Assembly: GCA_034432955.1 (NCBI GenBank)
Contig: DAOUBB010000153.1
Coordinates: 4,321 to 68,320, forward strand
From: Anaerolineae bacterium
GTDB lineage: Bacteria; Chloroflexota; Anaerolineae; DUEN01
Length of the DNA stretch: 64,000 nucleotides
Direction of reading: 5' to 3'
The notes below the pieces were generated by a model. The model saw only the letters and a list, made by a program, of their open reading frames with translations, searched no databases and was not told the origin of the DNA. A program made the translations under genes and the position numbers. Positions 4,073-9,963 of this stretch are shown here, piece by piece; position 1 is the first letter of the stretch, and each line of letters begins with the position of its first letter.

Positions 4073-5890
4073 CTAATTCAACACCGGCTCAGCCTCTGGC
4101 TCCAGTAGCGGCCGGCTCGCGAACTGGGTCATGTACAGCCGGTAGTACAGCCCTCGCTTCGCCAGTAGCTCGTCGTGCGTTCCCTCCTCCACGATTCGCC
4201 CGTGTTCCAACACGATGATGCGATCAGCGTTGCGGATGGTGGACAGGCGGTGCGCGATGATAAACGCCGTCCGCCCCTCCAGCAGGCGCTCCATCGCCCG
4301 CTGGATGAGGCGCTCCGTCTGCGTGTCCACGCTGGACGTCGCCTCATCCAGGATGAGGATGCGCGGATCGGCCAGCAGGGCGCGGGCGAACGCCACCAGT
4401 TGCCGTTGGCCGACCGATAGCCGCCCCCCGCGTTCCTGCACCTCATAGTCGTACTTCTCTGGCAACGACTGCACAAAGTCGTCCAAACCTACAGCCTGGG
4501 CGGCCCATCGCACTTCCTCGTCGCTGGCGTCCAGCCGGCTGTAGCGGATGTTGTCGCCGATCGTCCCGGAGAAAGTGAACGACTCCTGCAGGACGATGGC
4601 CATCTGCGACCGCAGCGTCGCCAGCTTCACCTCGCGCAGATCGTGCCCGTCAATCAGCACCCGGCCCTGCGTGGGGTCGTAGAAGCGCATGATCAGGTTG
4701 ATCAGCGTGCTCTTGCCGGAGCCTGTGGGGCCGACGATCGCGATCGTCTCCCCCGGCCGCACGTGCAGGTTGATATCGTGCAACACCTCCGGCTCGTCCG
4801 GCTCGTAGCGGAACGACACGTGCTCCAGCCTCACCTCGCCCCGGATGCGCGGCATGGCGATCGCGTCCGGCTTGTCGGCCACCTCCGGCTCAGTGTCCAG
4901 GAACTCGAAGATGCGCTTGGCCGAGGCCATGGCGCTGAGCAGCATGCTGTAGGTGCGGCTGATGGCGCTCACCGGTCCCCAGAAGCGCCACAGGTAGTTG
5001 ACGAAGGCCATGATGAAGCCAATGGTCACCTCGCCTCGGATCACCAGCAGCGCTCCGTACCACACGACCAGGGCGCTCCCCACGACGCCGATGAAGTCCA
5101 CGGCCGGCCAGATGGTCATCTCCCGCTTGACCGCTTCCATCACCCGGTCCAGCGCGTTGTTGTTCAGGCGATCGAATGTGCGCACGTTGAGCTCCTGCCG
5201 GTTGAACGCCTGGGTCACCAAGATGCCGTTGATGGACTCGTTCAGGTTGGCGTTGATGTTAGAGAGGCTGCGGCGCACGTTCATCCAGGCCGTTTCCATG
5301 GCCGGCCGCACCCGGATCACCAACAGGACCAGAAACGGGAAGACCGTGAACGTCATCAGCGCCAATCGCCAATGGATGGTGAACAGGATGATGACGATCC
5401 CCACCAGGGCGATGCCCTCGCTGGCGGCCATGACCAACCCCCCGCTGATCAGGCTGTTGATGGTGTCCACGTCGCTGGTGATGCGCGACATGATCCGCCC
5501 CACGGGATGATGATCGTAGAAGCGGAGGGACAGCTTCTGGATGTGGGTGAACAGGGTTTGTCGCAGGTCGTAGAGGACCCCCTGGCCGATAGCGTTGGTC
5601 AGGAAGATGCGCAGGTAGCTGCAGGCCCACACGACCAGGCGCATCGCCAGCATGCCGAGCACCGCCGTGTCCAACGCCCGCAGATCGTGCCCGATGACGC
5701 CTTGATCCACAGCCACGCGCAGCAGATACGGCTCGCTGAGGCCGGCCAGCGCGCTCACGGTGACCACGATCAGCACGCCCCAGGCGTGCCGCCGATAGGG
5801 GCGCAGGTAGCCCATGATCCGCCAGAAGTGGCTGAAGTGGAAGGGAGCTTTCTGCTCTTCCTCCATCTCCTCTTCAAACTCGAACGGCAT
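4073..5890 (-). CDS. ABC exporter, fused permease/ATPase (heterodimer subunit B)
   Basis: N-terminal TM domain; Walker A GPTGSGKS, signature LSVGQRQ, Walker B ILILDEATS. Confidence 0.95.
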   Translation of the reverse strand: MPFEFEEEMEEEQKAPFHFSHFWRIMGYLRPYRRHAWGVLIVVTVSALAGLSEPYLLRVAVDQGVIGHDLRALDTAVLGMLAMRLVVWACSYLRIFLTNAIGQGVLYDLRQTLFTHIQKLSLRFYDHHPVGRIMSRITSDVDTINSLISGGLVMAASEGIALVGIVIILFTIHWRLALMTFTVFPFLVLLVIRVRPAMETAWMNVRRSLSNINANLNESINGILVTQAFNRQELNVRTFDRLNNNALDRVMEAVKREMTIWPAVDFIGVVGSALVVWYGALLVIRGEVTIGFIMAFVNYLWRFWGPVSAISRTYSMLLSAMASAKRIFEFLDTEPEVADKPDAIAMPRIRGEVRLEHVSFRYEPDEPEVLHDINLHVRPGETIAIVGPTGSGKSTLINLIMRFYDPTQGRVLIDGHDLREVKLATLRSQMAIVLQESFTFSGTIGDNIRYSRLDASDEEVRWAAQAVGLDDFVQSLPEKYDYEVQERGGRLSVGQRQLVAFARALLADPRILILDEATSSVDTQTERLIQRAMERLLEGRTAFIIAHRLSTIRNADRIIVLEHGRIVEEGTHDELLAKRGLYYRLYMTQFASRPLLEPEAEPVLN

Positions 5891-5899
5891 GGTCGCTCC

Positions 5900-7684
5900 T
5901 CATTCCGTGTGAACTATCTCCCCGACGTGCCGGGTGCTGGATGCGGTCAGCTCTTCCTGCTCGCGGAACTGCAGGTGATAGATGCGAGTATACTCGCCGC
6001 CGCGAGCCAGCAGCTCAGCGTGTGTGCCCTCCTCGACGACGCGGCCGTCCTTCAGTACGACGACCTTGTCGGCTGTCTTTACCGTGGATAGGCGCTGGGC
6101 GATCACCACGGCTGTGCGGGTGGCCATCACCTGTTCCAGGGCCTGCTGGATCTCGTACTCCGTCTCCGTATCCACGCTGGACGTGGCCTCGTCCAGGATG
6201 AGGATGCGCGGGTTCATCAGCAACGCCCGCGCCAGCGCGATGCGCTGTTTTTGCCCGCCCGAGAGGCCGATGCCACGCTCGCCGACGCGGGTGTCATACC
6301 CTTTGGGCAGTGCCATGATGAAGTCATGGGCCTGGGCCAGCCTGGCGACCTCCTCGATCTCCTCCTGGGTGGCGTCGGGCCGGCCGAAGGCGATGTTCTC
6401 GCGCACCGTAGCCGAGAACAGGAACGTCTCCTGTGGCACGATCCCGATCTGCCGGCGCAGGCTCTTCAGTTGCACCTGGCGCACATCGTAGCCGTCTATC
6501 CTCACCGCGCCGCGCACCACGTCGTTGAAGCGCGGGATCAGGTTGATCACGGATGACTTGCCGGAGCCCGTGCCGCCCAGGATGGCGACGGTCTGGCCTG
6601 GCTCGATAACCAGGTTCAGCCCCTTGAGCACCATGCGATCGGGCTCGTCGGGGAAGGCGAACCATACGTCCTCGAAGCGGATCTCGCCGCGCACAGCGGG
6701 TAGCTCCACCGCGTCGGGCGCGTCCGTGATGGTGATGGGCGCGTCCAGGATCTCCAACAGGCGCGGCGTGGCGGCCAACGCCTGGCGCATAATGCTGAGC
6801 AACCAGCCCATCATGCGCACGGGCCAGATCACGCCCCACAGATACCACTGGTAAGCGAAGAACGTGCCTATGCTCACCTCGCCTTGCATCACCAGCCGGC
6901 CGCCGTACCAGGCCAATAGCACGAAGCAGAGGCCCATGAACAGGTCCATCGTCGGGAACGAGCGTGCCTCGACGCCGGCGCGGTACAGGCTCTTGGCGCG
7001 GTACCCCTCGTTTTGTATGCCAAAGCGCTTCGTCTCGTGTCCCTCGCGGGCGAACGCCTTGACCACGCGCACCCCGCTTACCGCCTCCTGCAACACGGTA
7101 GTCAGCCGCCCCATCTGCTCGCGGACCCCCTCCCAGGCGGGGCCGATGCGCCGGTCGAAGAGCACCACGGCCACGGCCAACGGGATGGTGGGGATGAGCA
7201 CGCTCAAGGACAGCTTCCAGTTGATGAGGACCAGGATGACGAGGGTGCCGATGAACGAGACGAGCCCGGCTCCCAGGAAGAGCAGTCCCCAGGCCACGAA
7301 CTCTTGCACGGCCTCCACGTCGCTGGTCAGGCGGGACATGATCTGGCCTGTCGGCATCGAGCGGTAGAAGCGGATGGGCAGGTCTTGCAGCCGGGCGTAC
7401 AGCAGATGGCGCAGATCGCGCACGACGCTCTGGCCGGCCAGATTCTGCGCGTAGCCCTGGTAGTACGCTGCCAGCGAACGAATCCCGGCCAGGACGATCA
7501 GGAGCAGAGAATAGAAGAGGACCAGGTCCATGCGTCGGCTGCTCAGCCCGCGATCCACCGTCCAGCCCAGGGCCGCTGGTGTGGCGAGGTCGCCGGCCAG
7601 GGTCACGAGGGTGAGAAAGCCGGCGATGGCCAGTTGCCTGCGATAAGGTTTGAGAAACCGGATCAGGCGTAGGAAGTTCTGCAT
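5900..7684 (-). CDS. ABC exporter, fused permease/ATPase (heterodimer subunit A)
   Basis: Walker A GGTGSGKS, LSGGQKQ, ILILDEATS; H-loop His replaced (IAQRL), typical of the degenerate site of heterodimeric exporters. Start moved to ATG 7684 (MQNFLRL) behind GAGGAAAG. Confidence 0.93.
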   Translation of the reverse strand: MQNFLRLIRFLKPYRRQLAIAGFLTLVTLAGDLATPAALGWTVDRGLSSRRMDLVLFYSLLLIVLAGIRSLAAYYQGYAQNLAGQSVVRDLRHLLYARLQDLPIRFYRSMPTGQIMSRLTSDVEAVQEFVAWGLLFLGAGLVSFIGTLVILVLINWKLSLSVLIPTIPLAVAVVLFDRRIGPAWEGVREQMGRLTTVLQEAVSGVRVVKAFAREGHETKRFGIQNEGYRAKSLYRAGVEARSFPTMDLFMGLCFVLLAWYGGRLVMQGEVSIGTFFAYQWYLWGVIWPVRMMGWLLSIMRQALAATPRLLEILDAPITITDAPDAVELPAVRGEIRFEDVWFAFPDEPDRMVLKGLNLVIEPGQTVAILGGTGSGKSSVINLIPRFNDVVRGAVRIDGYDVRQVQLKSLRRQIGIVPQETFLFSATVRENIAFGRPDATQEEIEEVARLAQAHDFIMALPKGYDTRVGERGIGLSGGQKQRIALARALLMNPRILILDEATSSVDTETEYEIQQALEQVMATRTAVVIAQRLSTVKTADKVVVLKDGRVVEEGTHAELLARGGEYTRIYHLQFREQEELTASSTRHVGEIVHTE

Positions 7685-7828
7685 GTCTTTCCTCACAACC
7701 GTACGGAGGCGTCCCGATGGGGTGTACACGCTCCATCGGGATGCCTGCACTCGGCGCGAAGGGGGCGGGTTCAGGCTTTTCCGACGCCCTCTTACGATCG
7801 GGGGAAACGGTGTTCGCTCGCAGGGCAT

Positions 7829-7860
7829 AAAAAAGCCCCGTCTCAGCGAGTGAGCGGGGC
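7829..7860 (-). terminator. Intrinsic terminator (attenuator) in the leader of the ABC exporter operon
   Basis: Minus strand GCCCCGCTCA-CTCGC-TGAGACGGGGC followed by TTTTTT, about 145 nt before the ATG. Confidence 0.85.
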
Positions 7861-7894
7861 CGAATGGGATGCCAGAGGAGGAGGGCCAGGGCCC

Positions 7895-8014
7895 TTACGT
7901 CGTGTCACCTCCAGGATGGATCGCCCATGCGGCCTCCGCAACGCACCCGCGGCGCGCGAAGACGCCAGCGATGACTGGTGCGCGCATACGGATGAGCGCA
8001 TTGGGGATTGGCAT
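7895..8014 (-). CDS. Putative 39-aa leader peptide MPIPNALIRMRAPVIAGVFARRGCVAEAAWAIHPGGDTT
   Basis: AGGAGGT RBS at 8019-8025, ATG 8014, TAA 7895-7897; lies between a promoter and the terminator; below the ORF-track cutoff. Confidence 0.7.
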   Translation of the reverse strand: MPIPNALIRMRAPVIAGVFARRGCVAEAAWAIHPGGDTT

Positions 8015-8068
8015 AGCAACCTCCTTTTCGAGATGAGGGGACACAATCTTGAGTCTCATGCAAAGAAC

Positions 8069-8097
8069 ATTGTATCAGACCTGGCAGGATTCGTCAA
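8069..8097 (-). promoter_or_regulatory. Sigma70-type promoter for leader/ABC exporter
   Basis: TTGACG-N17-TACAAT on the minus strand. Confidence 0.75.
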
Positions 8098-8129
8098 ATC
8101 TGTGGATTGTTAGCGGAGAGCCACATAAT

Positions 8130-8158
8130 TTGGCATTCACTGCGTCCACTGGTATAAT
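8130..8158 (+). promoter_or_regulatory. Sigma70-type promoter, divergent
   Basis: TTGGCA-N17-TATAAT. Confidence 0.75.
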
Positions 8159-8373
8159 TCTTTTTTGGGGGTTATTTCCCGAGGAGGTGCCACCGCAGGG
8201 GAATCGTGGTCGCGGTTTGCCTCCCTGGCCCCTTCCTCAGATTGGGGGGAAGGGCAAAATGGGATGACTCCACGATTCGATGCGGGGCTATCCTTGGAGA
8301 GCGTTGCCGTTTTATTAGCCAGCGAAGGCTTTCGCGATCTTCGTTGTGTTCCGTGTGATGGAGGTTCCCGAGA

Positions 8374-9963
8374 GTGCTTCAGCGCAGGACGCAGACGTCA
8401 GAATACTGGAAACAGGAGTTCGAGGTCCATCGCGAGGATCTTGAGCATTTGTATAGCCTGATCCTGGAACGCAATCGTCCTGTTTCCACCGATGAGCTTG
8501 TATTGGAGACCATTCGTTACCGTTGTCAGCAGGAAGAGCAACGCATGCAGGCCGAGCTCTCGCGAGGGATCGTGTACCAGCCGCGCGAGAGTTATGCCAT
8601 TGGCGATCAATTGGTCTTTCCGGCGTTCGACTATCGCCTGGGCACGGTGGTTTCGATCCGACCGGGGCGAAATCCCGAACACGGGGAATTTGATGTGATC
8701 ACCGTGGAATTCGAGAACGATGGCAGCCGCGGGGAGTTCGCCGCCAACCTGAAAACACCGCACAAGCTCAACCGGGCTCATGATGGGGATAGCCTCTGGG
8801 AAGTGGCCAACCTCACCCCACCGGAGGAGCTGTACAAGTCTTACGGCGAGCGGGTGCGCACGCTGTTGGTGGAGGCGTTGACGCGCTCCGATCTCGATTT
8901 CGTCTCCTTTGATAACCAGTGGCTGCTTCAAGGTTTGATGGCGGAGGTTCATGTCGGCCATCTCAACCTGGCGGAGGCTTTGATCGAGGTGAAGGGGCAA
9001 CCGCTCGGCGTGCAGGAGATCCTGGCGGAGTTGGATTTGCCGCCCGAGGTGCCTGAGCCGATCCGCACATTCTCTCTGAATGTCGCCTTACAGCGCGACG
9101 AGCGTTTTGACCTGATTCACAGCTACGATGGAGATCGGTGGATTCTGCGACGGCTGGAGCCGGAGGCGGCGCTCAGCATACCTGTTTCCCTCGTCTACCG
9201 GCCCGTCCGCTACAATCGAGCCTTCCTGACCGTGGAAATGCTCCAGGTCGAGTGGGAACTGGACGACGAGTGGACAGAAGGCGGCATCAGTACGGAGTCC
9301 GCTTTCCTGGTACCCAGCACGACCCTCGTGTTGACGTATCCGCACTGGAAGGCGGGGACGTTGCCGTTAAGCTCGCGCAGCCGGCCTTTCTTCCCGGCGG
9401 GTGAGCGCGGGCGCGGCCTGATCACGTTGATTGATGGCCGCTGGGGACAGCGTTTTCCCGGGTGGGTGGTGTATGAGGGAAGGTATGTCTGCGGGCTGGC
9501 TCCCTGGATCGAGCAACACAAATTACCGGTGGGCGCGTACATCACGCTGGAGCGCACGGCGAATCCCGGCGAGGTGACCATTGATTTCCGCCCGCGTCGC
9601 ATGCGCCGTGACTGGGTGCGGATGGCGGGGGTGGAAGATGGCAGGCTGGTCTTTCGCATGCAAAAGCAGCCCGTCTCCTGCGAGTACGACGAGCATGTCA
9701 TCTTAGGGGAGGAAAACCTGGAAGAGCTGGATGCGCTGCGCGCGCAGTTGGCCGAGCGGAACGCCCCCATCTCCGAGCTGCTGGCGATGGTGTTCCCGGA
9801 GCTGGCCAAGCTGAACCCTCAAGGCACTGTGCATATCAAGACATTGTACTCGGCGGTCAACGTATTGCGGCGCTGTCCACCGGGGCCGATCTTCGCGGCG
9901 CTGGCATCGGACCAGTCCTATCGCGAGGTAGGTAACGGCTATTACGCTCTAAATATCCAATAG
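8374..9963 (+). CDS. Hypothetical protein (529 aa), possibly nucleic-acid binding
   Basis: GGAGGT RBS, GTG start, long ORF with protein-like composition; no catalytic motif recognised. Confidence 0.85.
   Translation: MLQRRTQTSEYWKQEFEVHREDLEHLYSLILERNRPVSTDELVLETIRYRCQQEEQRMQAELSRGIVYQPRESYAIGDQLVFPAFDYRLGTVVSIRPGRNPEHGEFDVITVEFENDGSRGEFAANLKTPHKLNRAHDGDSLWEVANLTPPEELYKSYGERVRTLLVEALTRSDLDFVSFDNQWLLQGLMAEVHVGHLNLAEALIEVKGQPLGVQEILAELDLPPEVPEPIRTFSLNVALQRDERFDLIHSYDGDRWILRRLEPEAALSIPVSLVYRPVRYNRAFLTVEMLQVEWELDDEWTEGGISTESAFLVPSTTLVLTYPHWKAGTLPLSSRSRPFFPAGERGRGLITLIDGRWGQRFPGWVVYEGRYVCGLAPWIEQHKLPVGAYITLERTANPGEVTIDFRPRRMRRDWVRMAGVEDGRLVFRMQKQPVSCEYDEHVILGEENLEELDALRAQLAERNAPISELLAMVFPELAKLNPQGTVHIKTLYSAVNVLRRCPPGPIFAALASDQSYREVGNGYYALNIQ

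What the first reader, a model, noticed from the sequence alone, without database searches (positions are those of the whole stretch)
7685..8097. Complete leader-peptide attenuator upstream of a heterodimeric ABC exporter
Seen: promoter (8069-8097), AGGAGGT RBS, a 39-codon ORF, then a U-tailed terminator (7829-7860). Leader nucleotides GAGGCCGCATGGG (7924-7936) can pair at 11 of 13 positions with CCCATTCGGCCCC (7856-7868), which overlaps the terminator 5' arm, giving mutually exclusive structures. A 14-bp hairpin (7707-7746) follows. Established: ribosome stalling in leader peptides controls resistance and efflux genes, and R/K-x-R/K is a macrolide arrest motif; the leader has R-M-R at codons 9-11. 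Inference: exporter expression is induced by a ribosome-stalling compound. The inducer is unknown.
Basis: partly seen in the sequence, partly recalled or inferred. Interest (0 to 1): 0.65.

Follow-up and report, generated by a model that had tools for sequence, protein, structure and literature searches.

The report
Leader-peptide attenuator before ABC exporter
A 39-codon mini-gene and an RNA stop/go switch in front of a two-gene export pump of an uncultured Chloroflexota bacterium are real and conserved in relatives. They most likely turn the pump on when ribosomes are slowed, a familiar kind of control in a family not yet described.

Summary

Twenty orthologous loci (exporter 57-100% identical) carry the same module. 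It has a 36-45-codon ORF with a Shine-Dalgarno site and a terminator starting 18-36 nt after the stop. ORF nt ~70-100 are complementary to the terminator 5' arm. That complementarity co-varies between lineages. A sigma-70 promoter is found in 18 of the 20.

The peptide sequence drifts almost neutrally, so translation probably matters, not the product. I read this as a ribosome-dependent transcription attenuator. The closest known parallel is B. subtilis bmrB-bmrCD.

Two points are not supported. R-M-R occurs in only 3 of 20 leaders. The 14-bp hairpin lies in a lineage-specific insertion of a repeat with more than 30 genomic copies.

Verdict: a new member of a known kind, of moderate interest.

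The parts
8069..8097 (-). Sigma-70 promoter: -35 TTGACG (8097-8092), 17-nt spacer, extended -10 TG-n-TACAAT (8077-8069). The transcription start near 8062 is inferred.
   Evidence: 10 of 12 matches, TG present. The -35 and -10 hexamers are invariant or nearly so in the two closest genomes. An equivalent promoter lies 36-75 nt upstream of the leader ATG in 18 of 20 orthologous loci.
8019..8026 (-). Shine-Dalgarno sequence AAGGAGGT of the leader ORF, 5 nt upstream of the ATG.
   Evidence: A Shine-Dalgarno-like site is visible upstream of the chosen start in most of the 20 loci and is weak or absent in a few, such as L189.
7895..8014 (-). Leader ORF of 39 codons plus TAA: MPIPNALIRMRAPVIAGVFARRGCVAEAAWAIHPGGDTT.
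   Evidence: An ORF of 36-45 codons ends 18-36 nt before the terminator in all 20 loci. The chance of this is 0.04-0.07 per locus, with a product of about 1e-19 over 15 lineages. Gene callers called the small ORF independently in several loci. It has no Pfam hit.
7980..8008 (-). Candidate anti-antiterminator strand (ORF nt ~7-35). It pairs with the antiterminator 5' arm in the full-length minimum-free-energy fold.
   Evidence: On the 12-sequence alignment 63.5% of cells are paired, against 32-44% in slid controls. Masking codons 1-15 releases the antiterminator arm in loci where free RNA sequesters it. This part has the weakest support.
7924..7939 (-). Antiterminator 5' arm GCGG-a-GGCCG-c-AUGGG (ORF nt 76-91, codons 26-31).
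   Evidence: The helix was recovered independently by RNAalifold and 90% of its cells are paired across 12 sequences. The equivalent ORF position is used in the other lineages, with co-varying sequence.
7872..7919 (-). Apical part of the antiterminator structure (CCA/UGG, GGAGG/CCUCC and a small top hairpin). It encloses the leader stop codon 7897-7895.
   Evidence: Helices 3-5 are 63-85% paired on the alignment.
7854..7868 (-). Antiterminator 3' arm CCCAU-u-CGGCC-CCGC. Positions 7861-7854 are shared with the terminator 5' arm.
7829..7861 (-). Intrinsic terminator: stem-loop 7861-7834 and a T6 run at 7834-7829. It starts 33 nt after the leader stop.
   Evidence: A terminator is present in all 20 loci. 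83.5% of cells are paired across 12 sequences.
7707..7792 (-). Lineage-specific insertion in the 5' UTR. It holds a 40-nt repeat head (7792-7753) followed by the 14-bp hairpin (7746-7707). It is not part of the conserved switch.
   Evidence: It is absent from the group B and more distant loci, where the terminator lies 39-71 nt from the exporter start in 12 of the 17 loci outside the window's closest lineage. The 40-nt head matches 33 other sites in the genome.
5900..7684 (-). ABC exporter subunit A (594 aa) with Shine-Dalgarno GAGGA at 7694-7690. Its H-loop reads AQR, which is degenerate.
   Evidence: The best bacterial solved relatives are TmrA, TM288/287 and Sav1866.
4073..5890 (-). ABC exporter subunit B (605 aa). 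Its H-loop reads AHR, and its signature motif did not match the LSGGQ-type pattern used.

Best explanation
This is a ribosome-dependent (leader-peptide) transcription attenuator that gates a heterodimeric ABC exporter operon.

Transcription starts at its own strong promoter. A 39-codon ORF with a strong Shine-Dalgarno site is translated while RNA polymerase moves on. ORF nt 76-91 can pair with the sequence just upstream of, and including, the first 8 nt of the terminator 5' arm. If that helix forms first, the terminator cannot form and polymerase reads into the exporter genes.

- Off state: when the leader is translated at normal speed, ribosomes cover or have just melted this region, and the leader stop codon lies in the apex of the antiterminator structure. 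The terminator then forms and most transcripts end near 7829. On ribosome-free RNA the 5' part of the ORF probably sequesters the arm, with the same result.
- On state: when a ribosome is held up in roughly the first 15-20 codons, the antiterminator arm is free and unmasked. It pairs as soon as its partner is transcribed, and the exporter is expressed.

Shown here: the sequence anatomy, its conservation, and the co-variation of the two arms. Inferred: that the ORF is translated, that the terminator is conditional, and which stall positions switch it. The signal is most likely any slowing of translation, for example by ribosome-targeting natural products. This is consistent with the nearly neutral evolution of the peptide sequence.
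For: Anatomy is confirmed at the stated coordinates.

Twenty orthologous loci with the exporter 57-100% identical all have a 36-45-codon ORF, a terminator 18-36 nt after its stop, and the exporter downstream. These are G001, G004, three GTDB genomes, two metagenome contigs and 12 assembly contigs. Eighteen of the 20 have a near-consensus promoter. The chance of such an ORF is 0.04-0.07 per locus.

The antiterminator helix was found independently by RNAalifold and is 90% paired in 12 sequences; the whole antiterminator structure is 78% paired against 46-59% in slid registers.

Between lineages the ORF segment changes together with the terminator arm: GGCCG with CGGCC, GAGGGCGG with CCGCCCUC, GCCUGC with GCAGGC, and GACAUGCG with CGCAUGUC. 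An arm-swap test gives p = 0.005.

Masking the Shine-Dalgarno site and codons 1-15 makes the terminator arm pair with ORF nt ~70-100 in nearly all of the 20 loci (ORF nt 50-63 in L189; only 4 arm nucleotides in L023 and L101). On average 76% of the arm is sequestered, against 51% in free RNA. Masking also lowers the equilibrium advantage of the terminator state in 19 of 20 loci.

Substitutions are spread evenly over codon positions, and non-synonymous to synonymous changes run about 2-3 to 1, as expected if translation matters more than the peptide.

A covariance model finds exactly one copy per genome, and wherever the downstream DNA is held it lies just upstream of this exporter. It finds none at paralogous exporter loci.

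The precedent is bmrB-bmrCD (PMC4191407).
Against: Within the alignable group, co-variation is not significant against column shuffles because the arms are conserved (80 of 500 shuffles reach the observed score).

RNAduplex energies of the ORF against its own terminator arm are not clearly better than those of shuffled GC-rich ORFs.

At equilibrium the terminator state is always more stable, so the switch has to be kinetic.

Simple masking of a ribosome at the stop codon does not abolish the antiterminator in about half of the loci, including the window. The off state therefore rests on steric, queueing or kinetic arguments that I could not compute.

The anti-antiterminator is only moderately conserved.
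Confidence: 0.75

Rival explanations
1. The leader would be a sequence-specific, drug-dependent arrest peptide in which R9-M10-R11 (an R/K-x-R/K motif) stalls macrolide- or ketolide-bound ribosomes. The exporter would then be a macrolide-induced pump.
For: R/K-x-R/K is an established macrolide and ketolide arrest motif (PMC8298421, PMC12583479). A ribosome with M10 in the P site would cover ORF nt ~16-45. That masks the candidate anti-antiterminator strand and leaves the antiterminator arm free (geometry). R/K-x-R/K motifs between codons 9 and 17 occur in 9 of 20 leaders from several lineages, and the total is 15 against 9.0 expected (p about 0.04).
Against: R-M-R itself is present only in the window and its two closest relatives. 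Ten of 20 leaders have no such motif in codons 2-24. Arg makes up 13% of leader residues, so chance motifs are common. The peptide evolves nearly neutrally.
Confidence: 0.15
2. The attenuator senses the supply of charged tRNA, above all Ile-tRNA, as classical amino-acid leaders do, and not drugs. Hungry Ile codons early in the ORF would stall the ribosome and open the exporter operon.
For: Ile is strongly enriched in codons 2-15 of the 20 leaders: 31 of 280 residues against 11 of 495 in the rest (Fisher p = 5e-7). Runs such as LIIIS, LIIIG, TIIINI and FILII appear in the more distant lineages, and the window has Ile at codons 3, 8 and 15. These positions lie in the part of the ORF where a stall would favour the antiterminator.
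Against: The regulated genes are an ABC exporter, not a biosynthetic or transport-in function. Several leaders have no Ile or only one (L021, L101, L188, L189). The sequences are related, so the Fisher test overstates the signal. Hydrophobic N-terminal stretches are also typical of drug-sensing leaders.
Confidence: 0.1
3. The ORF is not translated and the leader is a riboswitch-like or protein-binding RNA that sets termination by itself.
For: The terminator and antiterminator alternative would work equally well with a ligand. The most conserved nucleotides are in the RNA helices. Third codon positions of GGA-GGU are conserved.
Against: The start codon, ORF length and stop position are kept in 20 loci although the sequence is not, and most loci also keep a Shine-Dalgarno-like site. 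The other two frames are mostly closed early. No Rfam family reaches its threshold. There is no conserved unpaired ligand-pocket-like core outside the helices.
Confidence: 0.06
4. The small ORF encodes a functional exported peptide, such as a bacteriocin- or RiPP-like product. The terminator would only set the ratio of peptide mRNA to exporter mRNA.
For: A small ORF followed by a leaky terminator and an ABC exporter is the layout of many peptide-export operons.
Against: The peptide sequence is nearly neutral and unrelated between lineages. The exporter subunits have no peptidase domain, and no modification enzymes are nearby; the next gene is a GH38 mannosidase. The ORF segment complementary to the terminator co-varies with it, which a product gene does not need.
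Confidence: 0.03

Closest known systems
bmrB (yheJ) leader of the bmrBCD operon, Bacillus subtilis (Reilman et al. 2014, PMC4191407)
   Same: A short translated leader ORF precedes a heterodimeric ABC exporter. An intrinsic terminator is flanked by alternative antiterminator and anti-antiterminator structures. The terminator is thermodynamically favoured, so the decision is kinetic. In that model slow translation lets the antiterminator form, and the inducers are ribosome-targeting antibiotics.
   Different: BmrB has 53 codons and the terminator lies inside its coding region. Here the ORF has 36-45 codons and the terminator starts 18-36 nt after the stop, with the stop codon in the apex of the antiterminator. 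The host phylum differs (Chloroflexota). BmrC and BmrD are not among the 60 best solved relatives of the exporter. AbrB-type growth-phase control is not expected here. Leader homology to BmrB was not tested.
patAB attenuator of Streptococcus pneumoniae (PMC4319486)
   Same: A transcriptional attenuator (terminator stem-loop) lies upstream of a heterodimeric ABC multidrug exporter, and its disruption gives constitutive expression.
   Different: I did not check whether a leader ORF has been described for patAB. It has no sequence relation to this leader, and its host is a member of the Bacillota.
Classical leader-peptide attenuators (trpL, ilvL and others) of Proteobacteria
   Same: They use four-segment logic (1:2, 2:3, 3:4), with ribosome position selecting antiterminator or terminator. 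Coupling of transcription and translation is required. This rests on established knowledge and is discussed in PMC4191407.
   Different: Those leaders carry runs of the regulatory codon and control biosynthetic operons. Here there is only a moderate Ile enrichment and the target is an exporter.
Drug-sensing arrest leaders: ErmCL/ErmBL/ErmDL, MsrDL (PMC10314930, PMC8298421), toiL uORF (PMC12121999)
   Same: A leader ORF acts as a sensor of ribosome-targeting compounds. R/K-x-R/K or hydrophobic arrest motifs occur early in the peptide. MsrDL and toiL also act on transcription termination.
   Different: Those peptides are short (8-27 aa) and depend on their sequence. Erm leaders act by unmasking the downstream Shine-Dalgarno site, not on a terminator. 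Here no arrest motif is conserved.

Membership tests
Ribosome-mediated (leader-peptide) transcription attenuators | Short ORF with its own ribosome-binding site in the 5' leader | tested here: met
   AAGGAGGT lies 5 nt before the ATG, followed by 39 codons. An ORF of 36-45 codons is kept in 20 of 20 loci, and most show a Shine-Dalgarno-like site. Translation itself was not observed.
Ribosome-mediated (leader-peptide) transcription attenuators | Intrinsic terminator between the leader ORF and the regulated gene | tested here: met
   Stem 7861-7834 plus a T6 run, z -3.6. Present in 20 of 20 loci, 18-36 nt after the stop.
Ribosome-mediated (leader-peptide) transcription attenuators | Antiterminator that overlaps the terminator 5' arm, with its own 5' arm within reach of the translating ribosome | tested here: met
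   7939-7924 pairs with 7868-7854. The helix is 90% paired in 12 sequences and was recovered by RNAalifold. The arm lies at ORF nt ~70-100 in nearly all lineages and co-varies with the terminator arm.
Ribosome-mediated (leader-peptide) transcription attenuators | Conditional termination that depends on translation of the leader | not testable with these tools
bmrB-bmrCD system of Bacillus | Terminator and antiterminator located inside the leader coding region | tested here: not met
   The terminator starts 33 nt after the TAA. Only the antiterminator 5' arm is inside the ORF.
bmrB-bmrCD system of Bacillus | Regulated genes orthologous to BmrC/BmrD | tested here: inconclusive
   The best solved bacterial relatives are TmrA (409 bits), TM288/287 and Sav1866. 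BmrC and BmrD are not among the best 60. Bacillus homologues are 39-42% identical. The exporter belongs to the same superfamily, and specific orthology is not shown.
bmrB-bmrCD system of Bacillus | Leader peptide homologous to BmrB | not tested
   No BmrB sequence was available in the tools used. The leader has no Pfam hit and no called homologue in the protein collection.
R/K-x-R/K (+X+) macrolide/ketolide arrest leaders | Arrest motif conserved at a fixed position of the leader | tested here: not met
   R-M-R at codons 9-11 occurs in 3 of 20 leaders, and 10 of 20 have no +X+ motif in codons 2-24.
Erm-type translational attenuation | A stalled ribosome opens a hairpin that hides the Shine-Dalgarno site of the regulated gene, with no terminator involved | tested here: not met
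   A U-tailed terminator intervenes, and the exporter Shine-Dalgarno site is about 140 nt further downstream. Folding of the downstream UTR gave no consistent sequestration of that site.
Amino-acid leader peptides (ilvL-like) | Clustered regulatory codons and a cognate biosynthetic operon | tested here: inconclusive
   Ile is enriched in codons 2-15 (31 of 280 against 11 of 495), but there is no run in the window and the downstream genes encode an exporter.
Exported-peptide (bacteriocin/RiPP) operons | Conserved precursor peptide, a peptidase domain on the exporter, or modification enzymes nearby | tested here: not met
   The peptide is not conserved between lineages. Pfam finds only ABC_membrane, ABC_tran and overlapping generic P-loop ATPase families on the nucleotide-binding region, and the neighbouring gene is a GH38 mannosidase.

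The most novel reading that the evidence does not exclude
The Ile-rich, Arg-rich first 15 or so codons shared by otherwise unrelated leaders of this clade could be a common arrest module. It would sense a particular class of natural translation inhibitors, or IleRS inhibition and Ile-tRNA shortage. That would make this clade-wide attenuator a dedicated antibiotic sensor of Chloroflexota, and its exporter a previously unrecognised inducible resistance pump. One orthologous operon carries a chloramphenicol-phosphotransferase-like gene between the two exporter genes.
Probability: 0.2. Interest if true: 0.6.

Novelty: new member of a known kind. Interest (0 to 1): 0.4.

Why it matters
Inducible efflux controlled by translation-sensing leaders has been studied experimentally mainly in Bacillota and Proteobacteria, the bmrB-bmrCD system being the closest case (PMC4191407). 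This locus shows the same logic in uncultured Anaerolineae and Ardenticatenales, with an unrelated leader. It is conserved over a clade with more than 120 exporter protein clusters.

The finding gives annotators a concrete, unannotated regulatory element: one small ORF and one RNA switch per genome. It marks the exporter as a probable stress- or antibiotic-induced pump in organisms that cannot be cultured. It also offers a set of 20 natural variants for asking how much of such a sensor lies in the peptide and how much in RNA geometry.

Tried and rejected
- **Rfam scan of 7400-8500 at E up to 10.** It gave only sub-threshold sRNA hits centred on the terminator. No known RNA family is present.
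- **Protein search with the 54-aa in-frame extension of the leader.** No homologue was found. The 39-aa form was too short for the tool.
- **Exported-peptide or RiPP reading.** Rejected: the exporter has no peptidase domain, there are no modification enzymes, and the peptide evolves neutrally.
- **Search for the leader at paralogous exporter loci (48% identity or less) in Chloroflexota and Bacillota.** The family is absent there. Some of those loci have MarR-like upstream genes, and some have other, unrelated short leaders.
- **RNAduplex energy of the ORF against its own terminator arm, compared with shuffled ORFs.** Uninformative in GC-rich sequence. I replaced it with an ungapped-helix arm-swap test.
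- **Anti-Shine-Dalgarno idea.** The conserved CGUUUCCCC after the terminator might pair with the exporter Shine-Dalgarno site, but folds of the short UTRs were weak and inconsistent. Left open.
- **Regulon test.** The covariance model found no second copy in any genome.
- **Earlier notes of this scan.** They hold no look-alike sequence.

Full report
**Observation.** I read 7500-8300 on the minus strand. All the reported elements are there.
- The promoter is TTGACG (8097-8092), 17 nt, then TG-n-TACAAT (8077-8069). The consensus scan lists it with 10 of 12 matches. Only 0.3 such sites are expected in this 2-kb stretch.
- AAGGAGGT (8026-8019) lies 5 nt before ATG 8014.
- The ORF runs 39 codons (MPIPNALIRMRAPVIAGVFARRGCVAEAAWAIHPGGDTT) to TAA 7897-7895.
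- Thirty-three nt later a stem-loop (7861-7834, -18.0 kcal/mol alone) is followed by T6 at 7834-7829. With flanks it folds at -20.6 kcal/mol, z -3.6, and none of 200 shuffles does as well.
- The 11-of-13 pairing between 7936-7924 and 7868-7856 is correct. It is part of the minimum-free-energy fold of 7822-7940 and shares 8 nt with the terminator 5' arm.
- The downstream genes are two ABC half-transporters. Subunit A has AQR in the H-loop and subunit B has AHR, which points to an asymmetric heterodimer. TmrA, TM287/288 and Sav1866 are the best solved bacterial relatives.

**Host and relatives.** Record titles of the closest hits name uncultured Anaerolineae, Ardenticatenales and Chloroflexota. 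A DNA search in relatives found the whole leader in the same-genus genome G001 (72% identity) and in another genus of the family, G004 (70%). The promoter, Shine-Dalgarno site, 39-codon frame and terminator are all kept there.

Orthologues of exporter subunit A above 55% identity are few among species representatives (L021-L023) and in JGI metagenomes (L101, L103). The large protein collection, however, holds more than 120 clusters at 57-95% identity. I spent all twelve contig look-ups on a spread of these.

**The module is conserved; the peptide is not.** In all 20 distinct loci I find a 36-45-codon ORF and an intrinsic terminator starting 18-36 nt after the stop; most also show a Shine-Dalgarno-like site, and the exporter start lies 39-182 nt further on. 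Eighteen of the 20 have a near-consensus promoter 36-75 nt upstream of the leader ATG. One of the two exceptions is cut by the contig end, and the other follows a tRNA-Gly gene. Gene callers had called the small ORF independently in several of these contigs.

After shuffling, the chance that the first in-frame stop falls in that 18-nt window is 0.04-0.07 per locus. The product over 15 lineages is about 1e-19. The other two frames are mostly closed early. The window bounds were taken from the data, so this figure is generous, but the result is not in doubt.

The peptides themselves fall into unrelated groups. Only the closest group shares NAL..MR and FAR..AAWAI[HD]PGG. In pairwise comparisons the differences are spread evenly over codon positions (for example 5, 8 and 10, or 13, 15 and 14). 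Non-synonymous codon changes outnumber synonymous ones 2-3 to 1, while the exporter stays 87-95% identical. What is preserved is an open, translatable frame of fixed length and position, not a product.

**The RNA switch.**
- On a 12-sequence alignment of the alignable lineages (A2), RNAalifold independently predicts the antiterminator helix (columns 109-119 with 177-187). Ninety per cent of its cells form standard pairs, and three pairs change on both sides. The whole antiterminator structure is 78% paired, against 46-59% in slid registers.
- The terminator is 83.5% paired.
- Because these arms are conserved, the column-shuffle tests are not significant.
- The stronger evidence lies between lineages. 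Where the terminator 5' arm reads CGGCC-CCGC, CCGCCCUC, GCAGGC/GUAGGC or CGCGUGUC/CGCAUGUC/GUAUGUC, ORF nt ~70-100 read GCGG-GGCCG, GAGGGCGG, GCCUGC or GACAUGCG/GGCAUGC respectively.
- In an arm-swap test the ORFs match their own terminator arm better than arms of other groups (mean score 18.65 against 16.7, p = 0.005).
- RNAduplex energies against shuffled ORFs were uninformative in this GC-rich sequence.

**How it probably works.** At equilibrium the terminator state is always more stable, by 5-23 kcal/mol. This matches what is reported for bmrB, so the decision must be kinetic.

In the full-length fold the 5' part of the ORF pairs with the antiterminator arm, forming an anti-antiterminator. 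This pairing is moderately conserved: 63.5% paired against 32-44% in slid registers.

I imitated a ribosome held early in the ORF by masking the Shine-Dalgarno site and codons 1-15. The terminator arm then pairs with ORF nt ~70-100 in nearly all of the 20 loci; in L189 the partner lies at ORF nt 50-63, and in L023 and L101 only 4 arm nucleotides pair. On average 76% of the arm is sequestered, against 51% in free RNA. In six loci the arm is nearly free in naked RNA but is captured once the early codons are masked. Masking also reduces the terminator's energetic advantage in 19 of 20 loci, by about 4 kcal/mol on average.

The leader stop codon lies in the apex of the antiterminator structure. 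A terminating ribosome, or one queued behind it on nt ~73-103, would therefore keep that structure from forming while leaving the terminator, 33 nt downstream, free. This last step is a steric and kinetic argument. Simple masking of a ribosome at the stop did not abolish the antiterminator in about half of the loci, including the window.

**The signal.**
- R-M-R at codons 9-11 occurs only in the window, G001 and L181.
- R/K-x-R/K motifs in codons 2-24 are present in 10 of 20 leaders (7.2 expected). The total is 15 against 9.0, p about 0.04. This is suggestive but not a conserved arrest site.
- Ile is clearly enriched in codons 2-15 (31 of 280 against 11 of 495), with III runs in distant lineages.
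- One orthologous operon (L192) has a chloramphenicol-phosphotransferase-like gene between the exporter genes.
- Together with the neutral drift of the peptide, I favour a general sensor of slowed translation. A specific drug-arrest peptide or an Ile-tRNA sensor are minority readings.

**What is not part of it.** The 14-bp hairpin (7746-7707) and the 40 nt before it (7792-7753) exist only in the window's closest lineage. In most other loci the terminator is 39-71 nt from the exporter start. The 40-mer is the 5' end of a mosaic repeat with 33 other copies in this genome. This stretch is therefore a repeat insertion in the UTR. G001 keeps the hairpin with one compensatory change.

**Distribution.** A covariance model of the switch (R1) finds exactly one copy in each of the seven genomes of the window's family. 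It also finds one in each of two genomes of a second family, out of 401 genomes sampled from the class. There is one weak hit besides these. Every confident hit lies just upstream of the orthologous exporter. The model finds nothing at paralogous exporter loci. The more distant leader types are beyond the model's reach.

**Comparison with what is known.** The closest described system is bmrB-bmrCD of B. subtilis (PMC4191407). It has the same logic and the same class of regulated genes. Its leader is longer, with the terminator inside the ORF, and exporter orthology is not shown. Homology of the two leaders was not tested. The patAB attenuator (PMC4319486), MsrDL (PMC10314930), the Erm leaders (PMC8298421) and toiL (PMC12121999) are further relatives by mechanism. 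No Rfam family and no Pfam family covers the leader.

Earlier notes of this scan describe many other leader-peptide attenuators before ABC exporters in Chloroflexota. None resembles this one in sequence. I treat them only as a sign that the kind is common.

**Verdict.** The macrolide/R-M-R detail and the extra hairpin are not supported. This is a new member of a known kind.

Noticed in passing
window 7707-7792 (-); 33 other sites in the genome, e.g. C18:42958, C71, C151:9840: There is a mosaic intergenic repeat family. Its head is GAGGG[TC]GTCTGAAAAGYCTGAACCNGCCCCTTTTGCGCC. It is followed by palindromic sub-repeats such as GGGCGGGATGGATCCCGCCCC and GCGGGCTGAAGCCCAC. One degenerate copy is inserted in this 5' UTR.
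   Followed up: partly
L027, L048, L062, L063, L071 (Bacillaceae loci), 150-340 nt upstream of the exporter start: Homologous ABC exporters of several Bacillaceae (about 40% identity) are preceded by a different conserved mini-ORF of 12-17 codons, M[KR]ML.KRVNRVLG, followed by a terminator. It looks like another leader-peptide attenuator family.
   Followed up: no
L192 3061-3663: In one orthologous operon a 200-aa protein of the chloramphenicol phosphotransferase-like family (PF07931) sits between the two exporter genes, behind the same type of leader.
   Followed up: no
L086, about 170-315 nt upstream of the exporter start: A 41%-identical exporter of an Ardenticatenaceae genome has a 30-codon ORF. 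The ORF ends about 22 nt before a strong terminator (-24.9 kcal/mol). This is a possible independent attenuator.
   Followed up: no
leader ORFs of the 20 loci, codons 2-15: Ile is enriched fivefold in the first 15 codons compared with the rest of the leaders. Runs of III appear in distant lineages. The reason is unknown.
   Followed up: partly
window 8057-8059 (-): An in-frame ATG lies 10 nt downstream of the -10 hexamer and would extend the leader to 54 aa. The same spacing with an in-frame ATG or GTG recurs in L021/L183 and L181 but not in G001, G004 or L101. It could be an occasional leaderless start.
   Followed up: partly
window 8130-8158 (+): A near-consensus divergent promoter (TTGGCA, 17 nt, TATAAT, 11 of 12 matches) lies back to back with the leader promoter. 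It faces a 529-aa ORF (8374-9963) that has no Pfam or NCBIfam hit.
   Followed up: no
L186 842-916: In one orthologous locus a tRNA-Gly(CCC) gene ends 44 nt before the leader ATG and no promoter lies between them. The leader may be co-transcribed with the tRNA there.
   Followed up: partly
window 7800-7808 (-): CGUUUCCCC, about 20 nt after the terminator, is invariant in the three closest genomes. A pyrimidine tract recurs there in others. It could pair with the exporter Shine-Dalgarno site GAGGAAA, but folds were inconclusive.
   Followed up: partly
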